Shown: in pieces, positions 16,362 through 32,821 of the stretch
Layout: each line of letters opens with the position of its first letter
How positions within the stretch are numbered: position 1 is the first letter of the stretch
From: an uncultured Candidatus Saccharibacteria bacterium
GTDB lineage: Bacteria; Patescibacteriota; Minisyncoccia; Phycocordibacterales; 2-02-FULL-43-11
NCBI GenBank assembly: GCA_964348785.1
Contig: CAYGDO010000002.1
Location: 66,238-130,237, forward strand
Length of the DNA: 64,000 bases
Reading direction: 5' to 3'
Notes under the pieces: model-generated
Databases searched by the model: none
What the model saw: the letters and a program-made list of their open reading frames with translations, nothing else
What the model was told of the DNA's origin: nothing
Translations under genes and position numbers: made by a program

Positions 16362-19300
16362 TTACTTTAAACTTTTAAGTAAGCTCTTCAAACTGTTTGA
16401 GAGAGACTGCAAGTTGTTAATTAATTGTCCAGCTTGACGATCAAAATACGCCTGACCTGCTGACGGCTTAAAAAATGTATTGATGACAGTACCACCAGTT
16501 TTAGGATTAATTTGAAAAACCGCAAAAGAGTTCGACAAAGAATCGTAGGCCCTTGCCACACCTCCAGCATCTATTTTTAGTGAAGTTTTACCATTCATTG
16601 CGTCAGTTACAAAATCTCTAGCACCTTTTATATACTCCTTAGTATTTTTAAATCCAAATTTCTCTGCATGTTTCCCAGCATGATAAATTGCATTATCGGC
16701 CAACGTTAACTTGGTTCCTTTACTCCAGATACCCTCAAAGACTGGCACCACTTTCCCCGCGGGTATCTCCCCCGCAGTCAATGCCCCAACGGCCGCCATC
16801 CCATAATTTCCTTTATCTACATCATCTATTACTTGGCTGACAGCAACTTGCCCAAGTGGAGTGAGTAACGATTGGGCAAAGGAAGTTATCTGTGGAGCGT
16901 ACATTGTCAAAACCCCTGCAACAGCCACTAGAGCTGGAAGAAACCTCCCATCCGGGTCTTTGTAAGTTACGGGATTATTACCTCCATACGAATACGAATT
17001 CTGAACTTGAGGATTTAAAAGAGCTTCCTTCCCTTCTTTACTCATCCCCACTTCCCAAAACACCGGATCCTGATTAAGAAACTGCCCTCTTGCTCCATCG
17101 TAGTAACGAGCATTAAGGTAAGAAAGTCCTGTACTTGCATCAAACTCCTGCCCTATATACTTCCTCTGTTCTTTTGGAGAACCTCCTTCATCTGCCCTAA
17201 TACTACCATAAGGATAATAGTCGATTAATTCCACAACTTTACCAGCGGTATCTGTGGAGAGAGTAATAGAACCAAGGTGGTCGATTAAGTGGTAAGAGAG
17301 AGATGAAGATGACGTTAGGTCTATAGGCTTTAGCTGGCGGATTGTTCCTCCTTTTTTGATTAAGACGCCACCTCCTTTCTTAACTAGAAGCTTGGAGGCT
17401 TTGAGGTTGATGTAGAGAGTGGAGTCTGCTGTGACAGTAAGAACTTTACCTACAGGGACAATGACAGAAGCGGGAGCGGTAACGGAGCCCACAATAGTAC
17501 ACGAAGAAATCAGCGTGAAATCTCCTGTTTCTGGAATAACACAAGTACCAGCGTTTGCATTTGTTAACTTTGGAGCTACGGGTGTCTTTTTGTCAAAAGT
17601 GGAGAGTAACGTGTCGCCCACAAAAACGTGAGAAGTCTCGGACACAACAACGTCGTCAGAATTGTATCCTGCGTTGAAGTATTTAGATGGATACAAAGTA
17701 ACACCGCCTTTCCCATCAGAAACCTTCACCCTAGCGCCTCCGTGATCATAAGCGTAAGTGGAAGTGGCGAGACCGTTTGCAACAGAAATTAGGCGGTTGT
17801 TGTAGTCATATATATAGGAAATATTGCCAAACGAAATCAAATTACCACTTTTGTCGTAAGAGAGAGTGTTGGTTGCCACAGAACTACCGGTAACCGTCGA
17901 CGCGTGGGGGTTGGCGTAATCGGTACCATCATAAAAATAGTTAGTAGTTGTAAACTTCCCCACAGCACTACTAAATGGGGTATTTTCATTAAAAATAGGA
18001 GCTCCGAAAGCCGTGAGATGGTATGCATTCGCCGTAAAATCGTAATAATTATTGCCAAGTTTGTAGTAAGCAACAAGATTGGCCTCATTCCCACTCAACT
18101 CAGTAAGATAATTGCTATCCAAATCAACAAGCGAACGACTTGTATTCCAAAATCGGACATCGTCAACAAGACCGTCCCAATTATGCGGATTTGGGAAAGT
18201 GGCCTTACCGATAGCCAATTCATTAAACCCGCCATAACCTCTACCGACAGCAAGAGTGGGGCCTTTCACCAAAGTATGCCCGCTGCTAGTTGATGTTGCC
18301 AAATACAAGTTCATTTCTGTGCCATTGTAAGTTCCGACAATATGGTACCAAGAGCCGACAGAGAGGGTGGTGTCATAAATTATTCTTGCCCCCCCAACTC
18401 CTTCTATATGCCTGTCAAAATTAATGTGGTGAGATCCGTCAGTATAGCTTGTAGATAAAGAGTAACCGACATTGGTCACAGCATCCTGTTGAGACGCAAT
18501 AATATTGAACCCAGCGGAAGGCAAACTTTCAGGTTTTATCCAAGCCTCTATAGTAATAGGTCCCCCAGAAATACCAGCATTAGTTGGGACGGAAGCATAC
18601 TGACTAGAGTCTCCTTCAACATCTAAAGAATATGGGTTGAGTGAAACTTGCCCTTCAATTTTACTAATAATATTTCCAAGCGGATTGTAAGCAAAAGATT
18701 GTTGATTTGGCGTCGCCAATGCATCTACCAATCGATACAAATCATCATACTTATACGTCGCGATTTTCTTTGTGTTGGTTTCCGAATTATCCACAATCTG
18801 CAAAATATTTCCGACAGAATCGTAAGTGTAGGACAAATTTTGAAGTTGTAAGTTGTTAGCTGAAAGAGTCTTTTTATTTGTTAAGCGATAAAGTCGCGCT
18901 GGATCATAGGTATTTGTAGCAACAACACCATTACCATAAGTAATCGTTTTTAGCTGACCAAGTGGCGAATAATCAAAAGCGCCGATTTGCGTTACAGGTG
19001 TAGTTGTGGAAACTCCAGTTGCCGATATTGAATCAACTAAACCTGCGGAATTGTATATGTATGAAGTTTTTTTGGAATCAACGCCGGTCATTTCTGTCAC
19101 ACCTCCTCCTAAATTGTAGAGATAACTTGAAATGAAAGTTTTACCTCCAATAATTTTAGTTTCAGTTTTTGCTTGCCCCGCGGGGGTGTATGCGTAGCTA
19201 GTACTATTCATTTCTAAATTTGCCCCGACAGAATCATCGGCATAAGAAACCGCACAAAGCTTACCGATGCCGAAATCACAGGCGTCATAAGTGTAAGTTG

Positions 19301-22300
19301 TCCTAACACCTACAGGGATAGTTGAAATTGGAGAAGAAGCTGCCTCAATTTTCCCCAATCTATTCAACGAATCGTAAGTATAAACTGTTCGCGTACCATT
19401 CGGATCGGTTTTCCCCGTAAGATTGCCGACATCGTCATACTGATATGAGTAAACCCCGAAAGCGGTGTCACTTGGCGTGTGCAAATCTTCCGCCAAAAGT
19501 CGTCTACCGGAAAAGTCATAAGTGAAATTACGAATATTTTGAAGCGCATCTGTGATTTTTACAAGATTTCCTAAAGAATCATATTCATAAAATGTGGAGT
19601 AGGTGTCGGGATAATTAAATTCATCCACACGAGTAAGTCGGCCAAAAACATCTTTATAATATATTTTACTTTTACCGAGCGTGTCGGTAATTTTTGTCTG
19701 ACCGGGACTGAAATATGTATTGGTCGTCCCTAAAGCGTCAGTTTTCTGCACATTCCTACCGAGTGCATCATAAGTAAAGCTAGTATACAAAGAACTGTCA
19801 CTCGTGGCAGAAGTTTTACCTGAACCGTCACTAAAATATGGCAAAGATTGTTTTCCAACGCGACCCTCAGAATCATAAATTATGTCTGACACAATAAAAG
19901 TATTGGGATTTTCAGATTGTTTTCGAGTTTGTATCTCCCTACCAATGCCATCAAAATAAGTGTAGGTTTCGTTTGAAAGAGTACTGTTTATGAAATCAAC
20001 TTTTTTAACAGAAATATTATTTGGAGTATCTGTGTATTGATAAATTGTTTTTGTCACTAAAGAAGCCGAAATACCCGAAACCACGACGGAATTTCCGTCA
20101 GGCTGTTTTTCTTGAAGAGTACGGCCAAAAGCGTCGTATGCTTTGGAATAAATTTGATTATTTGAATCGGTGATTTGAATTGGCTTTCCTAGAGCGTAAT
20201 CGTAAAGATAAGTGGTTTTTTGATTCAAATGATTAGTGACTGAAATCGGAAAAAGATTGTATGTGTCGTAAGAATAACCGGTAGAATTTCCATTTGCATC
20301 GGTTGATGTTGCCACAAGCGCAAACGGATTGTATGTTGCAGAAGTAATGGAATACCTACCATCAGAAATCAAAGATTCTTGTTTTGTGCCATTGCCTTCT
20401 AAAAGTTGACCAAAAGGTAAATCATCAAAATATGTTTTTGATTCCGAAATCACATTTCCAGATTGCGAATTAGTAGTTTTATGAGATACCTCGTAATGAA
20501 TTTGTATTGAAGTTGAAGTGGAAACGCCCGCGTTTGAAGCGTACTCAACATTAGTTATAGTTTTGTCATTTCCAATATCAACAAAAGAATAAGAAGCGAG
20601 CGTGTTTGTTGACGCGGAAGTTACCTCGCCATAATCAACAGAAGAAATTAAATTGCCATTTGAGGTATCGTATGAATATTCCGTAGCGTGATCTTTGTGA
20701 GAAGTCGTGCCGTCAAAACTTTCTTCAATCTTTTTAGAAAGATACACAAATACCGGTGCGGAAGAAGTAAAGCCTGCTGAATTTACTCCCGCTAAAGGAG
20801 ACTCACTATAAATATTTTGATTTCTGGCGAACAACTTACCCTCCCTATCAAAAACTTCTGTTTTATATACAGAGCCGATTTTGCCGTAACTATCCCCTGT
20901 TTCTCCAGTTGAAGAGTTATCACCATTCCCCTGATGAAAATATGAAATTGTCACAGATTTTCCGGAATCTTTTGTAACCTTGCCAAATCCGGCAAATTTT
21001 CTATCGTGCGAACCGTTAAAAAATCCTTGCCCATCTGCGTAAGTGTATGTATCTACTTGTGGCTCTCCACCCACGCCATCGGTTGTAGTTATTTTGGACA
21101 CAATCCAAAGAACTGTTGGCAGTTTTAGATTAAACCGCTCACCCGAAGCGGAAGTTTTGTAATCAATAGATGTTTTTCCGCCTTGCGGGTAAGTTATAGT
21201 TTTTAAAATATCCGCTCTTGTTGTGGGGCCACTTGGAATATCAACGAGGGTGTCACCGTTGGTGTCATAGTAGTCGGTCAGTTGATAGGAAAAATTCCAC
21301 TTCCAATTGTAAGGATTTATTTTAATAAAATATGGAGACTTGAGGGTTGAACTTTTTACAAATCCATTTCCTGTATTTATGTAAACTTCATTATAATCCC
21401 CTGTTGTGTACCCGTTATCAAAATTTGGGTTGTTTGGCAAAACCCAACCACGCAAAACATCAACTAGCCCGTCAGCGTTAATATCCAGATACCGAACCCC
21501 CATATCATTACCGTCACCATCAGTCATCATTAATGTGTGGTCAGGTGAATCACCAAAAATAGGAACCATTGGTCCAGTTAACCCCCCATCTCCAGTACCT
21601 ATACGAAAAGAACTGTATCTATCGCTAGTCTTTGTATCATCTAAACCATCACCATTAACATCCATCGCACCCACTCGCCTCCTCTCCTCCCACCCAGATA
21701 TTTCGCGTCCATAAATTTCTGGTAGGCCATCTCCATTTGTGTCTGCAACGAAAGAGCCTTTGGCTACTAGCAAAGGAGTGGTAGTTGATATGTATGTATA
21801 ACTATTATCCAAACTATTAATACCGCTATTCAGATAAAGTGTCGGTGGATTGGGAGGAGGAGGACAGGTGGCGTTGGTACAACTACCTGCATTAAAGAGT
21901 GTAACCGGAACACCGAAAAAATCAGTTAAACCGTCACCATTCAAATCCGCAATACGCGCACCACTATCCTCTGGGCCTGAACCGTTTGAACCCCTAGTAT
22001 GATAAGCAAATCTTAAATTAGGTAGGGAATTTGAACCCGCTACGCCTAACTTGTTCCACTCCACCTGAATATTAAAACTATTTGATTCATAAGGGTTAAT
22101 TCCAAGCACAAATGAATCTGTGTAGCCATCACCATTCAAATCAGCATAAACATCTCCCCCTCTTTCTGGACCGTAAAAGAAAGAGCCGAGAGCCCAACTA
22201 AACGTACCGGATGAAATAGCAGGCTCAAGCCCCGTCGGTAAAACAGGATTTTCAAACCCCTTCGTGTACTCAAAAGTTGTTTGCGGTAAAGTTGTTGCAA

Positions 22301-23615
22301 CGTTTTGGGAGTCGTAGCCAGTTTCAGTAATTCCTGAAAGGATTGAACGTACGCCGTTTACACCAACTCCGTAGGCAAATTCGTATTTCTTTTTCAAAAT
22401 ATCACTGACACGAATTTCAATTATTTTGAGTCGTTTGGCATTGGTACTTAAAAATGCAAACTTGTATGAAGAAATAGCACTGTCTGAACGAGTATCTTCA
22501 TATACAAAAGTGACTTTGTAAATTCCAGATACAACTTCTCCGGAATTTGCCTGATGATTGGTATAAGTAATTTCAGTTGGATATACCTGACCGCCAGTTA
22601 CCGTATAGTTATATGAAATGTAATTACCGTTTGAATCACGGACTTCATCTAGATACCATTTAGCAACACGAGAAGCATTTGCAGGGTCCGCGTTTCGTGA
22701 AGTTGCCACCGAACCGAAAGTGTAGACTCTGCCGTTTTTATCATAAACCTTCCAACTCGTAGTGGTGGCGTTGTAAACATATTTCAAAAATTCGCCGGAA
22801 TCAACGCGAGGTTGATATAAACCAGCAATTGTAGTTGAGGCTAATTCACCGGATAAGCTGGAACTGAAATAATCTTGACCATACATTACTATATTTCCCT
22901 GCTTATTGATTCTCTCAATTGATGGAATGTTAAAATCCCAACCATACCCCATCGTATTTATGTTGGAATTCTCGGACGAGTTATATGAAATATTTAAAGA
23001 TGTCTCAACACCTGCCCTACCGGAAGGTGTAACAATCGGATAGGAATATGAAAGCGCTCCCGAGGAAGCATTGGCTTCGGGAAGAGTGGTTTTTCTATAA
23101 GCAAAATTGGAATTATCGTAAGTGGTTGGCTTGTTTTCCAACTGAGCGCTAGTGGCTTCAATTTCTGGAGGTAACAAGTCTTGCGCGTCCGGAGAAACCT
23201 CTGGAATTTCAGTGTCCAACTTTGGAGCTTCCGGAGCAATCTCGGGCACCACTTCAGTTTTTGGATTTGCATCTACAGTTGTTTCGGGAGTTATTTGTGT
23301 CGGGTCAGGTAAAATAGTAGAGCCTATTTCAGAATTTTCTGATGCAGAACTGCTTGGTGTTGATGTATCAGGAGAAACGTTGGTCTCAGCTGGGGTAGAT
23401 GGAGATGCAGTTTGGTCAGAGGAGGTTTCAACGGAAGCTACGGGGACAGGAGGTTGCGAAGCAACCTCCTGCGCAAACGCCACAGCAATCGGTTGCATTA
23501 AAAAAGCAACCACCAAAAAACTGGTTACGATTTTTTGCGTATTTGATTTTCTTATTTTCTTTGTAGAAACAATTGAAAAAAAGAAATTCATAGAATTTTT
23601 ACTGACACTTCCCAA
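16362..23615 (-). CDS. Tc-toxin-like TcB/TcC fusion / RHS polymorphic toxin: signal, S/T/P linker, SpvB domain, FG-GAP beta-propeller, YD repeats with LamG insertion, RHS core, C-terminal toxin domain
   Basis: SpvB-like N-terminal region. 'ADLNGDGLTD/DVNGDGLDD/LDINADGLVD' FG-GAP repeats. Many YD repeats ('YTYDALGR','YEYDSLGNL','YQYDDVGNL'). RHS core 'YHLIDHLGS...YYPYG...RYYDGARGQFLNQDPV...NPVTYKDPDGRF'. About 195-aa tip follows. Confidence 0.85.
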   Translation of the reverse strand: MGSVSKNSMNFFFSIVSTKKIRKSNTQKIVTSFLVVAFLMQPIAVAFAQEVASQPPVPVASVETSSDQTASPSTPAETNVSPDTSTPSSSASENSEIGSTILPDPTQITPETTVDANPKTEVVPEIAPEAPKLDTEIPEVSPDAQDLLPPEIEATSAQLENKPTTYDNSNFAYRKTTLPEANASSGALSYSYPIVTPSGRAGVETSLNISYNSSENSNINTMGYGWDFNIPSIERINKQGNIVMYGQDYFSSSLSGELASTTIAGLYQPRVDSGEFLKYVYNATTTSWKVYDKNGRVYTFGSVATSRNADPANASRVAKWYLDEVRDSNGNYISYNYTVTGGQVYPTEITYTNHQANSGEVVSGIYKVTFVYEDTRSDSAISSYKFAFLSTNAKRLKIIEIRVSDILKKKYEFAYGVGVNGVRSILSGITETGYDSQNVATTLPQTTFEYTKGFENPVLPTGLEPAISSGTFSWALGSFFYGPERGGDVYADLNGDGYTDSFVLGINPYESNSFNIQVEWNKLGVAGSNSLPNLRFAYHTRGSNGSGPEDSGARIADLNGDGLTDFFGVPVTLFNAGSCTNATCPPPPNPPTLYLNSGINSLDNSYTYISTTTPLLVAKGSFVADTNGDGLPEIYGREISGWEERRRVGAMDVNGDGLDDTKTSDRYSSFRIGTGDGGLTGPMVPIFGDSPDHTLMMTDGDGNDMGVRYLDINADGLVDVLRGWVLPNNPNFDNGYTTGDYNEVYINTGNGFVKSSTLKSPYFIKINPYNWKWNFSYQLTDYYDTNGDTLVDIPSGPTTRADILKTITYPQGGKTSIDYKTSASGERFNLKLPTVLWIVSKITTTDGVGGEPQVDTYTYADGQGFFNGSHDRKFAGFGKVTKDSGKSVTISYFHQGNGDNSSTGETGDSYGKIGSVYKTEVFDREGKLFARNQNIYSESPLAGVNSAGFTSSAPVFVYLSKKIEESFDGTTSHKDHATEYSYDTSNGNLISSVDYGEVTSASTNTLASYSFVDIGNDKTITNVEYASNAGVSTSTSIQIHYEVSHKTTNSQSGNVISESKTYFDDLPFGQLLEGNGTKQESLISDGRYSITSATYNPFALVATSTDANGNSTGYSYDTYNLFPISVTNHLNQKTTYLYDYALGKPIQITDSNNQIYSKAYDAFGRTLQEKQPDGNSVVVSGISASLVTKTIYQYTDTPNNISVKKVDFINSTLSNETYTYFDGIGREIQTRKQSENPNTFIVSDIIYDSEGRVGKQSLPYFSDGSGKTSATSDSSLYTSFTYDALGRNVQKTDALGTTNTYFSPGQTKITDTLGKSKIYYKDVFGRLTRVDEFNYPDTYSTFYEYDSLGNLVKITDALQNIRNFTYDFSGRRLLAEDLHTPSDTAFGVYSYQYDDVGNLTGKTDPNGTRTVYTYDSLNRLGKIEAASSPISTIPVGVRTTYTYDACDFGIGKLCAVSYADDSVGANLEMNSTSYAYTPAGQAKTETKIIGGKTFISSYLYNLGGGVTEMTGVDSKKTSYIYNSAGLVDSISATGVSTTTPVTQIGAFDYSPLGQLKTITYGNGVVATNTYDPARLYRLTNKKTLSANNLQLQNLSYTYDSVGNILQIVDNSETNTKKIATYKYDDLYRLVDALATPNQQSFAYNPLGNIISKIEGQVSLNPYSLDVEGDSSQYASVPTNAGISGGPITIEAWIKPESLPSAGFNIIASQQDAVTNVGYSLSTSYTDGSHHINFDRHIEGVGGARIIYDTTLSVGSWYHIVGTYNGTEMNLYLATSTSSGHTLVKGPTLAVGRGYGGFNELAIGKATFPNPHNWDGLVDDVRFWNTSRSLVDLDSNYLTELSGNEANLVAYYKLGNNYYDFTANAYHLTAFGAPIFNENTPFSSAVGKFTTTNYFYDGTDYANPHASTVTGSSVATNTLSYDKSGNLISFGNISYIYDYNNRLISVANGLATSTYAYDHGGARVKVSDGKGGVTLYPSKYFNAGYNSDDVVVSETSHVFVGDTLLSTFDKKTPVAPKLTNANAGTCVIPETGDFTLISSCTIVGSVTAPASVIVPVGKVLTVTADSTLYINLKASKLLVKKGGGVLIKKGGTIRQLKPIDLTSSSSLSYHLIDHLGSITLSTDTAGKVVELIDYYPYGSIRADEGGSPKEQRKYIGQEFDASTGLSYLNARYYDGARGQFLNQDPVFWEVGMSKEGKEALLNPQVQNSYSYGGNNPVTYKDPDGRFLPALVAVAGVLTMYAPQITSFAQSLLTPLGQVAVSQVIDDVDKGNYGMAAVGALTAGEIPAGKVVPVFEGIWSKGTKLTLADNAIYHAGKHAEKFGFKNTKEYIKGARDFVTDAMNGKTSLKIDAGGVARAYDSLSNSFAVFQINPKTGGTVINTFFKPSAGQAYFDRQAGQLINNLQSLSNSLKSLLKSLK

Positions 23616-26943: not shown

Positions 26944-28587
26944 CTACATCTTGTATAAATCTAAATACTTATTACCCAAAACAGACACTTGCGAATCTTT
27001 ATTCAGAAAATCTGCTAAGCCAACCAAAGATGGAAACATAATATTTGAACCGTGGTGTGGCTCTATGTGTATGTCCCCCAAAAATATTTTACCAGAATTA
27101 ATCATTTCGTTAAAAATTTTTAATTTTCCGTCTATGGCATAAATCGCTGACTGCGGAGAAGAACAAGAAACATGAGGATTTGAAATACCATGATAAACCC
27201 AACCTTCTGGAATCTTTTCTGGATGAAAATAACCATGCCAATGCGCCATTGCTAAACCCTTATTTTTTACAAGATTTAAAAACTCATCTTTCGGAGAAAA
27301 CTTCTGTAAAATACTGGCAATTATTACATTACCTACGGCATGAGCCAAAATAACCTTAGTGTCAAAAGATGGCTTATAGTCACTTTTCAAAACTAAACCC
27401 TTAGGAGAACAAAGATGCATTCTCCCATTTTTTAATCCTAATTTAATTATATCCTTATTGGGATCAAAATTAGTTTTATTACAACCGGAACGCAAACTAA
27501 GAACCCAGACTTCTGGCAATTTCATTACATATTTTAAGCCTTTTAAAGATAAAGCGATATATAAATTTCCATCAAAATTGGCAAAGTCTTTGTCGCCGAA
27601 TACAACACCTGAATGATTCTTTATAAAATCATCATAAATGATTAGATCCTCTAATTTAGAAGGTAGCTGTCTAGCAAAAAAACCAAAACTCATACCACTT
27701 CTCTCATCCAAATGAATACTGCCAATCCATTTATAAAAATTATTTCTAAAAGGCAAATCTGCTATTTTTTTGCCGGGTGGGTATAGCTTTGTCTTTTCAA
27801 ATTCTTTAGAACCCTTAATCAAATCGTCGACTGACTCTTTATGAAATGTATCAAAAGGATCAAAAGCGTTTGGTTGAAATACAAACTCAGAAAATTTATT
27901 TGGTCTTATGGGCGCCACAACTTTTGGCACTAAGGCGTGAAGAACAGAATTATTAAAATCTTTTTTTCTGTCATATATCGGATGCGAAGCATTAAAATTA
28001 TACAAAAGCCATTTATCTTTTTTTACTGCAATAACGATATTTGTCATATGATGTGCAAAAAGACTCATAGACGTATCAAAATGTTCCACAAAATCTGACT
28101 CCTCTGAAATACCCTTTGGCCAATTAACAATAGTAATAACAAAACTACCAGAAAAACTTATAGTATGATCCATTGGCAAATTCCAAGTTTCATTTTCTCC
28201 AAGAGCAATTACAGATATGCCCTTCTTTATCTTGTTTCTTCTAAACAAATTCCTGATAGCGCTAAGAGGCACATAATGTCTACTATTATCTAATTTAAAT
28301 ACTCCATTAAAAAAACAAATAAAATTATTTACCAAAATTCTGAAAAGTCTTCTAAAAATTCTAGGGATAGAAACCTTCTCTAAGGCCTCTTCATAAGGAA
28401 CAACATTCACCTTTAAATCACTAAAAGCTTTCTTTAATTGCTCAACAAAAGAAAAAACCTCTTCATCAATATGCTTCCCAACGTGAGGGTAAAAAGTCAC
28501 ATTCATTTTATCAGCCATCTCTTCAGCAGTAATTGAGACTGTTTCTTTTATGCTTAAAATTTTTTCTAGGGCTTCTTGACTTAACAT
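26944..28587 (-). CDS. hypothetical protein (547 aa)
   Basis: Long ORF with no motif I can assign. Confidence 0.45.
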   Translation of the reverse strand: MLSQEALEKILSIKETVSITAEEMADKMNVTFYPHVGKHIDEEVFSFVEQLKKAFSDLKVNVVPYEEALEKVSIPRIFRRLFRILVNNFICFFNGVFKLDNSRHYVPLSAIRNLFRRNKIKKGISVIALGENETWNLPMDHTISFSGSFVITIVNWPKGISEESDFVEHFDTSMSLFAHHMTNIVIAVKKDKWLLYNFNASHPIYDRKKDFNNSVLHALVPKVVAPIRPNKFSEFVFQPNAFDPFDTFHKESVDDLIKGSKEFEKTKLYPPGKKIADLPFRNNFYKWIGSIHLDERSGMSFGFFARQLPSKLEDLIIYDDFIKNHSGVVFGDKDFANFDGNLYIALSLKGLKYVMKLPEVWVLSLRSGCNKTNFDPNKDIIKLGLKNGRMHLCSPKGLVLKSDYKPSFDTKVILAHAVGNVIIASILQKFSPKDEFLNLVKNKGLAMAHWHGYFHPEKIPEGWVYHGISNPHVSCSSPQSAIYAIDGKLKIFNEMINSGKIFLGDIHIEPHHGSNIMFPSLVGLADFLNKDSQVSVLGNKYLDLYKM

Positions 28588-28593
28588 AAAAAA

Positions 28594-29310
28594 TTAATGA
28601 TTATACGTTTTTACTTTAGAGAGTTCTGACACAATTTTTAAAATATTTTTACTAGTTTCTTTATAATAATTAATCTCTGGGTCATGATCATTCTTAAGAA
28701 CCAGATCGCGCGCGTAAATAGGTCTCCCAAAAATCACTCGAACAAATCTTTTTCTCAAGACAAAGTCCCAAAAACCCATCTTATATAAATCAGTAAGCAA
28801 AATAGGAACAATTGGCAATTCTGTTTTTTCAGCAAGAAAAGTAACACCTCCTCTCGCCTCTTCAATCATAACATTTCCAGTCCTGGTTGTTTTACCTTCT
28901 GGAAATATCAAAAGACTATGTCCTTTTTGAATAATGTGAATGTGACGAGATAAAGAAATACCATAATCTTTATATCCCGATATTACAGAATGGGCTCCCC
29001 ATAATTTAAATACGGTCCCGCCATAAAAAATTTGTCTCCAACCACTAGTTTTATAAAAATCTTTTGGTCTTGAAGTGTAAAACATTGGCATAAACTTAGA
29101 TAAAAAAGGCAAACTAGCCGGAACCAAAACGGGATCAAGCTCACCTGTATGATTAGCAGCAAAAATTACGCCTGGAGATAATTTTTGTAAATTATCTAAA
29201 CCCTCCACTTTTAAGTGGAGGAAAAATCTAAAAAGTGGCCGAGTAATCGGCCATATTGCTGTTTGCAAAATTAAGGGGGTAAAGAGAAAAATTTTTTCTA
29301 TATTTTTCAT
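28594..29310 (-). CDS. plsC: 1-acyl-sn-glycerol-3-phosphate acyltransferase
   Basis: 'AANHTGELDP' (HX4D) and 'FPEGKTTRTG' LPLAT motifs. Confidence 0.8.
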   Translation of the reverse strand: MKNIEKIFLFTPLILQTAIWPITRPLFRFFLHLKVEGLDNLQKLSPGVIFAANHTGELDPVLVPASLPFLSKFMPMFYTSRPKDFYKTSGWRQIFYGGTVFKLWGAHSVISGYKDYGISLSRHIHIIQKGHSLLIFPEGKTTRTGNVMIEEARGGVTFLAEKTELPIVPILLTDLYKMGFWDFVLRKRFVRVIFGRPIYARDLVLKNDHDPEINYYKETSKNILKIVSELSKVKTYNH

Positions 29311-29367
29311 CTAATTTTGATGCCCGTATTTTAACATAAAACAACAAAAATAATACAAATTGTAAAG

Positions 29368-29395
29368 TTGCCAAATAAATAAGCAAGAGTAATAT
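29368..29395 (+). promoter_or_regulatory. candidate promoter TTGCCA, 16-nt spacer, TAATAT, driving the ncRNA candidate
   Basis: Sequence match placed about 7 nt before the GC-rich RNA start. Confidence 0.35.
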
Positions 29396-29400
29396 TTTCA

Positions 29401-29758
29401 ATGTCTTCGGTGTCGTGAGAAGGAAACGGAGCCACTGATGGGTCTCCCTGCGGAGATACAGAGGGCTCGTGTGATTCCCAAAAAAGTACCCGAAAGGGAC
29501 ATAAGGGAAGAGCCTAAACCCCGGCTTGGCTGGGGGGTTGAGGGACCTCAACATCACGGTATCTACGAACGGTCGCCGGAATAGGTTCGGCGTGACTTAG
29601 TAGGAGAACCGAGAGGTATCCCAAGTAGGTTCGTGCCATGCGACCGAATCCGTCCCAGAACTCTGGGATAAGGCTAAACTCTGAGCGCCCTTGCGAGCGC
29701 GCTCCTCCGAAGACCCGGACCCCCACGTTGCACAAGCGACGTGGGGTTTTGTTTTTTT
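29401..29758 (+). ncRNA. candidate structured non-coding RNA, class unassigned (about 355 nt)
   Basis: GC-rich island on the plus strand amid minus-strand genes. Long-range perfect 8-bp closing stem GUCUUCGG (29403-29410) with CCGAAGAC (29707-29714). GNRA hairpin CCC-GAAA-GGG. Ends with strong terminator ccccacg..cgtgggg plus U-run at 29721-29758. Annotated ORFs here are short and overlapping. Confidence 0.45.
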
Positions 29759-29765
29759 AAAAAAC

Positions 29766-31289
29766 CTAGAAAGAACTCAGCCCCGAATACTCCATAAGCA
29801 AATATTGAACTCTTTTCATTAAACGATCATCCTGATATTTTTCATACCCAACCGAATAAATTTTTCCATTTTCATTATTCCAAATCTCGTCAAAAAACTT
29901 TTGCGCATCTTTAAAAACCATTTCATCCTTGTCGCCCAAAACCAAAACGTTAGTTTCTAAATTATAATTTCCAAGATTTCTTCTTGTTAAATTTGCAGAG
30001 CCTTGTATGAGAGAATAATGATTACTTTTTCTAAAATTAAATGTTTTGTCACTTAAAGACGCCCCTACGGCATCTCTTTTAAATAAAATCAACTTGGAAT
30101 GACACTGCTCACCATGAGTTAAACACCATCTAACTTCAGTGTTATTTGATTTAAGAAGAACCTCGCTCGCCACTTGCCTATTTGGCACACCATCTTTTTC
30201 CCTACCAAAAGCATCTTTGTTGGGATCAAAAAAAAGTCTTATTTTCACCCCTCGCCTATCAGCCTTTTTTATGGCCCTCACAATATCTCTGTCAGAAATA
30301 TAAAACATTGCCATATCAAGACCGTCTCCACTTTGGAGAGTGCTCATCTCCTCCAAAATAGATTTTTTTATTGATTTCTCTGTTAAAAGTTGAACTCTCA
30401 AAGAAGAGGTCACTGTCTCAAAAATCTTTTTGTTAGAAAAATTTGGTTCTACAAAATTGCCATTTGAAAAATCAACAACTAATTTCTCGCTCTGAAGAAC
30501 ATCTCTCCATAATTTTTCATCCACAACTATGGCCGTATTACTGTGAGCACTTGATCCATCGTGAGGATTAGCAGAAGTTATAAGCACAGAAACTTTAATA
30601 TTATTGCTTTCTAACTTATCAGCCAAAACCACCTTCCTGTGGTTAGCCTTAAAATTAAAAAGGGAAAGGTAGGTTCTAATCCCAAGTTTTTGTCCACCTT
30701 GTTTAAAAGGGTTGGGTAAAAAACCAACCTCAGAACTATTAGGAAACCAACCAAAAAAAGCTCGCCAAAAACCACTATAAAGCGGGTTACTATCCCTTAA
30801 AACCTTCAAATTCGTGATTGTAACGCTTATTCCTGCGTCTTTAAGCTCCTCTAGGTGAATTGCCGTAATACCGCCATAAATCTCATTTATAGGGTCAGTA
30901 ATTACTTGTATGACAATTTCTGGATTTTGACGTTTTTTGGTTATTAATTTTTGAGTTAAATCATAAGATAAAGATTTGTAGGAAGAAGTGGCCGTGCCAA
31001 GCATTCCATTAAACAAAAACATATCCATAAGGATATACGAATGAGCTTCATCTATCATCTTAAAAACTTCATCAAAAATCTGTTGGTCCATTTTTCTACT
31101 GGAGGAATCGTCAATGTATGTCTTATCAGACAAAAATCGGACACTTTCTGAAGAAACATTGAAAACCGTTCCGGAAAAATTCACTCCTTTTGGCAAGAGT
31201 TTTACAAGACCATAAATAGCAAAAAAGACATAAATCAGAATTAAAACAAGAAAAAGTTTTTTACAAAAATTTTTAATTTTTAGAAACAT
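29766..31289 (-). CDS. phospholipase D family protein (cardiolipin synthase-like), N-terminal TM
   Basis: Two HKD-like motifs: 'HRKVVLAD...' and 'HSKLILFK...GSANLTRRN'. Confidence 0.65.
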   Translation of the reverse strand: MFLKIKNFCKKLFLVLILIYVFFAIYGLVKLLPKGVNFSGTVFNVSSESVRFLSDKTYIDDSSSRKMDQQIFDEVFKMIDEAHSYILMDMFLFNGMLGTATSSYKSLSYDLTQKLITKKRQNPEIVIQVITDPINEIYGGITAIHLEELKDAGISVTITNLKVLRDSNPLYSGFWRAFFGWFPNSSEVGFLPNPFKQGGQKLGIRTYLSLFNFKANHRKVVLADKLESNNIKVSVLITSANPHDGSSAHSNTAIVVDEKLWRDVLQSEKLVVDFSNGNFVEPNFSNKKIFETVTSSLRVQLLTEKSIKKSILEEMSTLQSGDGLDMAMFYISDRDIVRAIKKADRRGVKIRLFFDPNKDAFGREKDGVPNRQVASEVLLKSNNTEVRWCLTHGEQCHSKLILFKRDAVGASLSDKTFNFRKSNHYSLIQGSANLTRRNLGNYNLETNVLVLGDKDEMVFKDAQKFFDEIWNNENGKIYSVGYEKYQDDRLMKRVQYLLMEYSGLSSF

Positions 31290-31348
31290 AACGAAAGGTA
31301 TTTTAACATTTTGTCATAAAAAACACCCCTCGCAAACCAAAAGAGATG

Positions 31349-31582
31349 TTAAATCGGCACAATGACAAATCTGTCATTTTCCTGGCACAGTTCGAGCTCG
31401 CGCAAAAACGCCCTGACAACACCAAGCTCAACCCACGTTTTATCATCAACGTGAATGACACTAGTTCCAAGCAACCTGACCAAGTCCTCGTCGCGCCTAA
31501 ATGGTTTAAGAAACCGTTTTGCCCTCTTGCCCAGTTTCAATCCCCTTTTCCGTAATCTATGCAAGAAATTTTTAACAGTCAC
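31349..31582 (-). CDS. small basic hypothetical protein (77 aa) in a GC-rich island
   Basis: GTG start preceded by GGAGGT RBS ('ggaggtataagGTG'). Elevated GC. The overlapping plus-strand ORF 31346..31555 is rejected. Confidence 0.45.
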   Translation of the reverse strand: MTVKNFLHRLRKRGLKLGKRAKRFLKPFRRDEDLVRLLGTSVIHVDDKTWVELGVVRAFLRELELCQENDRFVIVPI

Positions 31583-31632
31583 CTTATACCTCCAGAGAAT
31601 ATGATAACTCTAAAACAAAGAGAATCAAAAAA

Positions 31633-32730
31633 TTATAAACCCTGTTTCTTCAATTCCTCAATCAATTTTTTAGAATCTTTTGAAAGTCTGGTTGGTATAT
31701 CTATCTTTATGTGAATCATCAAATCCCCTCTTCTTGTTTTATCAACCGGAACACCTCTACCTTTTACTCTTAATATTTCACCATGTTTAATTCCTTCGGG
31801 AATTTTTATTTTTATACTTCCATCCAAAGCTTTTATCTCATATTCATCGCCAAGAAGAGCACTAGAAAGTTTAATCGGTAAATCCATCGCCAAATTTGAA
31901 CCCTCCTTTCTAAACATTGGATGATTTCTAACATGAACCTTTATATACAAATCACCACTAACACCTTTTGAAATCGCTTCTCCTTCGCCGGTCATCCTAA
32001 TCATCTCACCATTTTCAATACCAGATGGAATTTTAACTGATATTTCGTGTTGTTTTTTTAACACACCCTCTCCGCGACATTTAGAACATGGTTTTTCAGG
32101 AACCTTTCCTCTTCCTCCGCAGACATTACAATTTCTAACAGTTGAAAAAGAGCCGAGAAAAGATTTTTTAGTTTCTCTAACTTGTCCCTTACCATTGCAA
32201 GTCACACAAATTTTTTCCCCAGTCCCTTTTTCAGCTCCATTCCCACTACAAGAATCACAAACTGAAGTCTTATTTAACAAAACCCTTCTTTCTGTACCAA
32301 AAATTGATTCTTCAAAAGAAAGTTCCACATCTATTGAAATATCTCTACCTCTTTTTTGCCTTCCACCCCCACCACCAAAAAAATCTCCAAATATATCTCC
32401 TAAATCAAACTCATTAGAAAAACCTCCCTGTCCGCCGAAACCTTTAGCAAAATCAGAAAAATCAAAACCACCAAAACCTTGAGATGGGTCAAATCCCCCG
32501 GCCTGCCCTCCACCATTTCCACCAAAAACTCTGCCGTAAGTATCATATTCGGCTCTTTTCTTATCATCAGACAACACTGAATAGGCCTCGCTGGCTTCTT
32601 TAAATTTCTGCTCATCACCACCTTTTTTATCAGGATGATATTTATGAGCTAAATTTCTAAAAGCTTTTTTGACTTCATCTTTTGAGGCTCCTTTTTGCAA
32701 ACCTAAAATTTCGTAATAATCTTTATTCAT
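31633..32730 (-). CDS. dnaJ: molecular chaperone DnaJ
   Basis: J-domain 'DYYEILGL...HKYHPDK', G/F-rich region, four CxxCxGxG repeats. Confidence 0.9.
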
Positions 32731-32821
32731 TTGGCTTGTAGTTTATTATTTAAGAGTTTTGAAAGCAAGGACGAAGACCGAATCGGTTTTTTATAAAACC
32801 GATTCGGTCTTAAAAACAATT

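What the first reader, a model, noticed from the sequence alone, without database searches (positions are those of the whole stretch)
29368..29758. Second GC-rich structured RNA candidate with promoter, long-range closing stem and strong terminator
This is one of only two plus-strand features within about 57 kb of minus-strand genes. Candidate promoter TTGCCA-16-TAATAT sits about 7 nt upstream. The 5' GUCUUCGG (29403-10) is perfectly complementary to CCGAAGAC (29707-14) about 300 nt away, a P1-like closing helix. Internal hairpins include a GNRA-loop CCC-GAAA-GGG. It terminates at ccccacg...cgtgggg plus U-run. The annotated ORFs in this region (29228..29557, 29514..29735) are short, overlapping and on the opposite strand. 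I could not fit RNase P (no room for P3), the SRP helix-8 motif, or a tmRNA tRNA-like domain.
Basis: seen in the sequence. Interest (0 to 1): 0.8.

Follow-up and report, generated by a model that had tools for sequence, protein, structure and literature searches.

The report
Stand-alone RNA copied from a ribosomal RNA domain
In a small, AT-rich bacterial genome (probably a candidate-phyla-radiation bacterium), a short gene with its own promoter and terminator makes a GC-rich, strongly folded RNA of about 355 nucleotides; its middle is a heavily reshaped copy of one part of the large ribosomal RNA. It sits where related genomes have a tRNA-Arg gene, and its function is unknown.

Summary
On the + strand, window 29395-29760 is GC-rich (56-57% against 36% for the genome). 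It has a promoter-like site (29368-29395), an 8-bp helix joining the 5' end (29403-29410) to the 3' end (29707-29714), with pair probability about 0.98, and an 11-bp terminator followed by a U-run (29721-29758). It folds far better than shuffled sequence (z -4.5). Rfam finds no family. A covariance model built only from real 23S rRNA domain-I sequences (E. coli nt 155-460 and two others) picks out window 29425-29693 as the only significant match (18.4 bits, E 1.3e-6, controls 103-104). The match keeps several 23S anchor motifs and helices, including a long-range helix and 3 compensatory base-pair changes. It is far more divergent than any real 23S (real 23S pieces score about 107-138 bits). 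It is not a copy of the genome's own 23S, which keeps this segment. The unit occupies the site of tRNA-Arg(CCG) in related genomes and came in together with a cardiolipin synthase gene. A homolog about 88% identical was assembled from a sediment metatranscriptome. Best reading: a separately transcribed, stable RNA derived from the 23S rRNA. Its function is unknown; a decoy for proteins that bind rRNA is a guess.

The parts
29368..29395 (+). sigma70-like promoter (TTGCCA-16-TAATAT); predicted transcription start about 29400-29403
   Evidence: consensus scan; weak on its own (4 hits vs 1.2 expected)
29403..29410 (+). 5' strand of the closing helix (P1-like), not derived from rRNA
   Evidence: MFE; pair probability 0.97-0.99
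29425..29693 (+). core homologous to 23S rRNA domain I (about E. coli 23S nt 230-430); the central E. coli ~283-357 part is replaced
   Evidence: CM R2 built only from real 23S (E 1.3e-6); no signal in control GC-rich regions; pairwise z 4.9 against a CPR 23S with 0/200 dinucleotide shuffles; mapping
29473..29479 (+). 23S anchor motif GAUUCCC (E. coli ~232)
29511..29522 (+). 23S anchor motif AGCCUAAACCCC (E. coli ~265-275 region)
29511..29675 (+). long-range 23S helix kept (29511-29514 paired with 29672-29675; E. coli 265-268/424-427)
   Evidence: A5 alignment
29651..29670 (+). 23S-derived hairpin (E. coli ~405-422) kept with 3 compensatory base-pair changes against all rRNA rows
   Evidence: alignment fitted to the model, so it leans toward pairing
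29670..29678 (+). 23S anchor motif AAGGCUAAA (E. coli ~422)
29707..29714 (+). 3' strand of the closing helix
29721..29758 (+). intrinsic terminator (11-bp GC-rich stem) plus U-run
29347..29374 (-). promoter-like site for the divergent plsC gene; shares the AT-rich stretch 29311-29399 (23.6% GC)
29766..31289 (-). cardiolipin synthase (PLD-like, HKD) gene, acquired together with the RNA (not found in 40 relatives; nearest homolog in a Ca. Nomurabacteria MAG, 50% identity)
28594..29310 (-). plsC (1-acyl-sn-glycerol-3-phosphate acyltransferase), conserved neighbour; in relatives it sits next to tRNA-Arg(CCG) and dnaJ

Best explanation
This is a separately transcribed, stable non-coding RNA of about 355 nt made from its own promoter (start near 29403) and ended by the intrinsic terminator at 29721-29758. 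Its body (about 29425-29693) is a remodeled copy of the central subdomain of 23S rRNA domain I (about E. coli nt 230-430). It keeps the anchor motifs GAUUCCC, AGCC(C/U)AAACCC, GGUAUCC and AAGGCUAAA, the long-range helix that closes this subdomain, and a downstream 23S hairpin kept through compensatory changes. The central stretch (E. coli ~283-357) is replaced by new sequence. A non-rRNA 8-bp helix clamps the 5' end to the 3' end, as in stable ncRNAs such as RNase P RNA and tmRNA, which would protect the ends from exonucleases. Most likely it works as a stand-alone mimic of this part of the 23S rRNA. It would bind, and perhaps soak up, the ribosomal proteins or assembly factors that recognise this subdomain, the same mimicry principle that ribosomal-protein operon leaders use (PMC10931766). 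Its target and effect are not known. The unit and the adjacent cls gene were acquired horizontally into the site where related genomes keep a tRNA-Arg(CCG) gene; this genome has no tRNA-Arg(CCG) anywhere. Shown: the anatomy, the 23S homology, the site replacement, and that a homolog exists in another organism and appears in an RNA library. Inferred: transcription in this organism, stability, and the mimicry function.
For: 23S homology: a covariance model built only from three real 23S domain-I sequences finds window 29425-29693 as the only significant match in 28800-30300 (18.4 bits, E 1.3e-6). Other GC-rich regions score at most 3.7 bits. A model built from the candidate alone finds, among 150 genomes of the phylum, only a 23S domain I (G183). 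Pairwise local alignment with that 23S gives z 4.9, and 0/200 dinucleotide shuffles reach it. Anchor spacing matches E. coli 23S (33/105/52 nt against 33/113/51). In the rRNA-fitted alignment the candidate forms 22 of 25 rRNA pairs, including 4 double changes. Stable-RNA anatomy: GC 56.7%, like the tRNAs (56.2%) and well above the genome (36.1%), the genome's own RNase P RNA (38.6%) and its tmRNA (38%). Folding z -4.5. Promoter, 5'/3' closing helix at pair probability 0.98, terminator. Retention: the X4 groundwater DNA run holds a relative of the locus (plsC, RNA 3' part, cls) at about 90-95% identity. The X8 sediment metatranscriptome assembled RNA contigs (~88% identity with indels) covering only 29420-29683, not the flanking genes. 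Not a relic of the genome's own rRNA: the own 23S (contig C3) keeps this segment and is not similar to the candidate. The high GC argues against neutral decay in an AT-biased genome.
Against: No transcript has been seen for this organism itself; X1/X2 are DNA runs. The X8 RNA contigs could come from a DNA contaminant, or, less likely, from an unusual real 23S. Similarity to 23S is weak (18 bits against about 107-138 for real 23S pieces), and Rfam's LSU model does not detect it. The alignment used to count pairs was fitted to the 23S model, so pair support leans toward it. No binding partner, ribosome association or phenotype is shown. The element is absent from the four same-genus genomes and from 100 relatives, so it is lineage-specific and could be a recent acquisition of no function. 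The promoter match is weak statistically.
Confidence: 0.5

Rival explanations
1. A non-functional relic. A piece of a foreign 23S rRNA gene was carried in with cls by horizontal transfer (or recombination at the tRNA site) and has decayed into a degenerate pseudogene. Its promoter- and terminator-like elements are fortuitous or belong to the neighbouring genes.
For: Weak 23S similarity, as expected for a decaying fragment. Absent from same-genus relatives and from 100 relatives. Inserted at a tRNA site together with a horizontally acquired gene. rRNA fragments are GC-rich to begin with.
Against: It is much GC-richer (56.7%) than the genome's own 23S segment (36-41%) and genome (36.1%). A neutrally decaying piece in an AT-biased genome should drift toward AT, not away. 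A compensatory-looking conserved hairpin. A tight 5'/3' closing helix bracketed by a promoter and a strong terminator. A homolog assembled from an RNA library.
Confidence: 0.3
2. A domain that works in trans. The RNA is incorporated into 50S subunits or supports their assembly, supplying or doubling the central subdomain of 23S domain I. This would be like fragmented rRNAs, but here alongside an intact 23S.
For: It is sense to the 23S, keeps the closing long-range helix of the subdomain, and carries its own end-clamping helix. The genome's own 23S carries an AT-rich insertion in this same domain-I region, which hints at unusual rRNA processing in this lineage.
Against: The genome's own 23S keeps the same segment, so nothing is missing that needs supplying. 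The central part of the subdomain is replaced. Nothing of this kind is known in bacteria.
Confidence: 0.07
3. An unrelated new ncRNA, such as a regulatory sRNA or a mobile-element RNA, whose short resemblance to 23S anchor motifs is convergent or chance.
For: Rfam's LSU model and a 3-sequence nhmmer profile do not detect it. The pairwise signal against E. coli 23S is weak (z 2.5).
Against: Colinear order and spacing of several anchors. A significant match to a covariance model built only from real 23S (E 1.3e-6), with clean negative controls. Structure-consistent pairing and the long-range helix.
Confidence: 0.08

Closest known systems
Bacterial 23S (LSU) rRNA, domain I central subdomain (about E. 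coli 23S nt 230-430)
   Same: Colinear anchor motifs (GAUUCCC, AGCC(C/U)AAACCC, GGUAUCC, AAGGCUAAA) with similar spacing. The same long-range closing helix (E. coli 265-268/424-427) and a downstream hairpin kept with compensatory changes. Same (sense) orientation.
   Different: Stand-alone gene about 355 nt long with its own promoter, a non-rRNA 5'/3' closing helix and a terminator. The central E. coli ~283-357 part is replaced by new sequence. Far more divergent than any real 23S (18 vs 107-138 bits), and Rfam's LSU model misses it. Located far from any rRNA operon, between plsC and cls.
rRNA-mimic regulatory RNAs (ribosomal-protein operon leaders for uL1, bL20, uS8, uS15, etc.; PMC10931766 and the Meyer 2018 review cited there)
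   Same: Proposed way of working (inferred): RNA that copies an rRNA protein-binding structure so as to engage ribosomal proteins.
   Different: Those are short cis-acting leaders upstream of r-protein operons that arose as convergent mimics. This one is a separate transcription unit away from any r-protein gene and is descended from a 23S domain by homology. No partner protein is known.
Stable housekeeping ncRNAs with end-to-end closing helices (RNase P RNA P1, tmRNA acceptor stem)
   Same: A 5'-3' closing helix right before an intrinsic terminator, high GC and a strong fold in a low-GC genome.
   Different: No RNase P conserved regions and no similarity to the genome's own rnpB. No tRNA-like domain or tag reading frame (own tmRNA elsewhere). 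The body is rRNA-derived.
Fragmented/scrambled rRNAs (e.g., organellar or kinetoplastid rRNA pieces encoded separately) — from memory, not checked here
   Same: A defined rRNA subdomain expressed as its own transcript with closing helices.
   Different: Here the genome's own 23S is intact over this region, so the piece is not a required part of the ribosome.

Membership tests
23S/LSU rRNA gene (Rfam RF02541) | Detected by the curated LSU covariance model | tested here: not met
   No RF02541 match for 29390-29770 even at E<=10. A real 401-nt 23S piece scores 294 bits, E 4.7e-95.
23S/LSU rRNA gene (Rfam RF02541) | Homology to 23S domain I by a structure-aware model built from real 23S | tested here: met
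   Custom CM R2 (E. coli nt 155-460 plus 2 other 23S): 18.4 bits, E 1.3e-6; controls at or below 3.7 bits.
23S/LSU rRNA gene (Rfam RF02541) | Full-length gene (~2900 nt) in an rrn operon with 16S/5S | tested here: not met
   Only ~270 nt of domain I; flanked by plsC and cls; the genome's own 23S is elsewhere, at contig C3.
Trans-acting split/fragmented rRNA piece | The main 23S lacks the segment that the piece supplies | tested here: not met
   The genome's own 23S (C3) contains this domain-I segment, with an insertion.
RNase P RNA (bacterial type A/B) | Conserved regions CR-I to CR-V / P4 pseudoknot; Rfam hit | tested here: not met
   No Rfam RNase P match. The genome has its own RNase P RNA at C1:142804-143241, and it is not similar.
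tmRNA | tRNA-like domain (acceptor stem with CCA, T-arm) plus tag reading frame | tested here: not met
   No tmRNA signal here. The genome's tmRNA is at C4:67654-68066. No tag-like ORF.
SRP RNA (4.5S/large) | Ffh M-domain partner in the genome; helix-8 motif; Rfam hit | tested here: not met
   No SRP_SPB (Ffh M-domain) in the genome. No SRP RNA by Rfam.
6S RNA | Rfam 6S match; ~180-nt rod with central bubble | tested here: not met
   No 6S in the genome. Branched ~355-nt fold.
Intron-containing tRNA (tRNA-Arg(CCG) replaced at this site) | tRNA exons flanking an intron | tested here: not met
   ARAGORN with introns allowed finds nothing in 29000-30000. Only a 9-nt CCUCCGAAG match to the tRNA anticodon arm, not above shuffles.
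rRNA-mimic r-protein leader (cis-regulatory) | Lies in the 5' UTR of a ribosomal-protein operon and binds that r-protein | tested here: not met
   Flanking genes are plsC, cls and dnaJ, not r-protein genes. Binding could not be tested with these tools.
Protein-coding gene | Conserved ORF with domain or homologs | tested here: not met
   The ORFs overlapping the region have no Pfam domain. The 48-aa plus-strand ORF would be broken by indels in the X8 homolog.

The most novel reading that the evidence does not exclude
A domesticated 23S subdomain: a ribosomal RNA domain turned into an independently transcribed trans-acting RNA that takes part in ribosome biogenesis or ribosome-targeted stress responses. 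It would act by soaking up proteins that bind the 23S domain-I central subdomain, or by docking onto 50S particles. If so, rRNA domains can be exapted as separate regulatory RNAs in bacteria.
Probability: 0.15. Interest if true: 0.85.

Novelty: new variant of a known kind. Interest (0 to 1): 0.55.

Why it matters
If this is an expressed, functional RNA, it would be a bacterial ncRNA built by homologous descent from a structural domain of the 23S rRNA. Known rRNA mimics are short, convergent leaders of r-protein operons. Such a case would give a testable handle on ribosomal-protein titration or assembly control in candidate-phyla-radiation bacteria, whose rRNAs are already unusual (insertions in domain I here). 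It would also be a concrete example of rRNA being modular and able to spin off domains, a point relevant to models of stepwise ribosome evolution. It is also a practical warning: structured 'novel' RNAs in small genomes can be rRNA derivatives that Rfam's LSU model misses.

Tried and rejected
RNase P RNA, tmRNA, SRP RNA and 6S: all rejected. The genome has its own RNase P and tmRNA elsewhere with no similarity, no Ffh M-domain and no Rfam 6S/SRP. Intron-containing tRNA-Arg at the replaced tRNA site: ARAGORN -i found nothing. Only a 9-nt anticodon-arm match, not above shuffles. Copy of the genome's own 23S: rejected, no BLAST similarity to the C3 23S. Trans-supplied split-rRNA piece: rejected, the own 23S keeps the segment. 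Protein-coding: the overlapping ORFs have no Pfam domain. Phage or plasmid origin: no hits in phage/plasmid records or in viral contigs with three exact patterns. Two exact-pattern scans of metagenome contigs found nothing. Homologs in same-genus genomes and 100 relatives by BLAST and CM: none. In 400 phylum genomes only short 23S-motif hits. Antisense sRNA targets: only chance-level 14-mers. A paper search for rRNA-derived bacterial small RNAs found nothing relevant. The minus-strand reading (5' leader of plsC): rejected in favour of plus. The plus strand folds better, the 23S similarity is sense on the plus strand, the terminator is plus-oriented, and the plsC promoter-like site lies outside, at 29374-29347.

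Full report
Observation. A sigma70-like site TTGCCA-16-TAATAT sits at 29368-29395. A promoter-like site for plsC on the other strand sits at 29374-29347, in a shared AT-rich stretch (29311-29399, 23.6% GC). The MFE fold of 29395-29760 pairs GUCUUCGG (29403-29410) with CCGAAGAC (29707-29714), with ensemble pair probabilities of 0.97-0.99. An 11-bp GC-rich hairpin at 29721-29746 is followed by a U-run. The strand folds far better than dinucleotide shuffles (z -4.52; 0/100 shuffles as stable). The minus strand gives z -3.04. The GNRA-type hairpin CCC-GAAA-GGG (29486-29500) is present. The overlapping opposite-strand ORFs (29228-29557, 29514-29735) and a 48-aa plus-strand ORF have no Pfam domain. 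Rfam 15 finds nothing at gathering thresholds in the whole window, nor at E<=10 on 28800-30300 or 29390-29770. A Logan contig of the likely source run spans 28500-32800 in one 19.7-kb piece with no differences, so the locus is real.

What it is not. The genome has its own RNase P RNA at C1:142804-143241, with no similarity to the candidate. It has its own tmRNA at C4:67654-68066. It has no SRP RNA and no Ffh M-domain, so an SRP RNA is not expected. It has no 6S RNA. The candidate is single-copy. ARAGORN, with introns allowed, finds no tRNA here.

What it is. A covariance model built from the candidate alone (R1) was searched against 150 genomes of the phylum. Its only significant match outside G000 was a 23S rRNA domain I (G183; L050). 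Pairwise alignment of the candidate with that 23S is colinear and beats 200/200 dinucleotide shuffles (z 4.9). The candidate shares 23S anchor motifs whose order and spacing match E. coli 23S: GAUUCCC (E. coli ~232), AGCC(C/U)AAACCC (~265-275), GGUAUCC (~388) and AAGGCUAAA (~422); the candidate spacings 33/113/51 nt match 33/105/52 nt. A second model (R2) was built only from three real 23S domain-I sequences: E. coli 23S nt 155-460 from a RefSeq chromosome, another bacterial 23S and the G183 23S. It finds window 29425-29693 as the only significant hit in 28800-30300 (18.4 bits, E 1.3e-6 for 1.5 kb, roughly E 7e-4 if scaled to the whole genome). The next hit scores 1.4 bits, and other GC-rich regions of the window score at most 3.7 bits. 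Real 23S pieces score 107-138 bits, so the candidate is a distant, reshaped homolog. That is why Rfam's LSU model, which detects a 401-nt real 23S piece at E 4.7e-95, misses it. In the rRNA-fitted alignment (A5) the candidate forms 22 of 25 aligned rRNA pairs, with 4 double changes against all rRNA rows. It keeps the long-range helix that closes this subdomain (E. coli 265-268/424-427 = window 29511-29514/29672-29675) and the E. coli ~405-422 hairpin (window 29651-29670, 3 compensatory changes). The central E. coli ~283-357 part is missing or replaced by new sequence. The 5' (29395-29424) and 3' (29694-29760) flanks are not rRNA-like; they make the end-clamping helix and the terminator.

Origin and context. 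Downstream of the grpE-dnaK-dnaJ operon (35825-31633, minus) come a cardiolipin synthase gene (29766-31289, minus; PLD-like), the RNA (plus) and plsC (28594-29310, minus). In same-genus genomes plsC sits next to a tRNA-Arg(CCG) gene and then dnaJ, with no cls. The whole G000 genome lacks tRNA-Arg(CCG). So the cls + RNA unit occupies the tRNA site. The cls is absent from 40 relatives; its nearest homologs are in a Ca. Nomurabacteria MAG (50%) and Bacillota (~40%), which points to horizontal gain. The RNA is not next to cls in those homologs. It is not a copy of the genome's own 23S: the own 23S was found at contig C3 by nhmmer after the Rfam-family search missed it. That 23S is 85% identical to a same-genus 23S, keeps this domain-I segment with an AT-rich insertion, and is not similar to the candidate. 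The candidate's GC (56.7%) is far above that of the own 23S segment (36-41%) and the genome, which argues against neutral decay in an AT-biased genome. Outside G000, a groundwater metagenome DNA run (X4) holds a relative of the locus: plsC, the RNA 3' part and cls, at about 90-95% identity. A sediment metatranscriptome (X8, 212 Mbases of RNA reads) assembled two RNA contigs about 88% identical that cover only 29420-29683, the rRNA-like core, and not the flanking genes. This is a homolog present in an RNA library. It is not proof of transcription, since DNA can contaminate RNA libraries. No close copies turned up in phage or plasmid records, viral contigs or metagenome contigs, and none in 100 relatives.

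How it probably works. Anatomy shown: promoter, end clamp, rRNA-derived core, terminator. This is the layout of a stable, separately transcribed ncRNA. The most economical functional guess is rRNA mimicry: a free copy of the central subdomain of 23S domain I would bind the proteins that recognise that subdomain, either soaking them up or competing for them. This is the mimicry principle that ribosomal-protein operon leaders use (PMC10931766), but here it arose by descent from rRNA, not by convergence. Which proteins, and to what end, are not shown. The main rival is that this is an old rRNA-derived relic picked up by horizontal transfer and transcribed by chance. Against the relic: the GC enrichment, the conserved pairing, the clamped ends and the homolog in an RNA library. 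A more exotic reading, that it takes part in ribosomes or ribosome assembly in trans, is weakly supported and cannot be tested here. The genome's own 23S is complete in this region, so the RNA is not a missing piece.

Scores. I rate this a new variant of a known kind (rRNA-derived/rRNA-mimic RNA), with interest 0.55. The decisive tests are expression mapping, covariation with the X8/X4 homologs, structure probing and partner identification.

Noticed in passing
No Rfam family at E<=10 and no 23S-domain-I signal with model R2.
   Followed up: partly
window 16362-23615 (-): A 2417-aa protein with RHS repeats, SpvB and TcdB_toxin_midN domains: an RHS/Tc-toxin-like large polymorphic-toxin-type protein. 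Its C-terminal region has no annotated domain.
   Followed up: no
whole G000 genome; relatives' plsC loci (L013, L014, L017, L018): G000 has no tRNA-Arg(CCG) gene anywhere (ARAGORN), whereas same-genus relatives keep one next to plsC. CGG codons are presumably read by tRNA-Arg(UCG) (inferred). The tRNA's orientation differs between relatives G001 (+) and G004 (-).
   Followed up: partly
G000 contig C3 start (about C3:1-1000, minus) and relative G002 23S (L051): The own 23S rRNA carries a long AT-rich insertion inside domain I (between the AAACCC and GGGGGUUG motifs), as the same-genus 23S does. The genome-wide Rfam LSU search missed this partial 23S, while nhmmer found it.
   Followed up: partly
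window 29235-29254: A palindromic, terminator-like hairpin (GTGGCCGAGTAATCGGCCAT) inside the N-terminal coding region of plsC, scored on both strands.
   Followed up: no
window 29703-29711: CCUCCGAAG, a 9-nt match to the anticodon arm of the relatives' tRNA-Arg(CCG), overlaps the 3' strand of the RNA's closing helix. It is not above shuffle expectation; it might be a trace of the replaced tRNA, but nothing shows it.
   Followed up: partly
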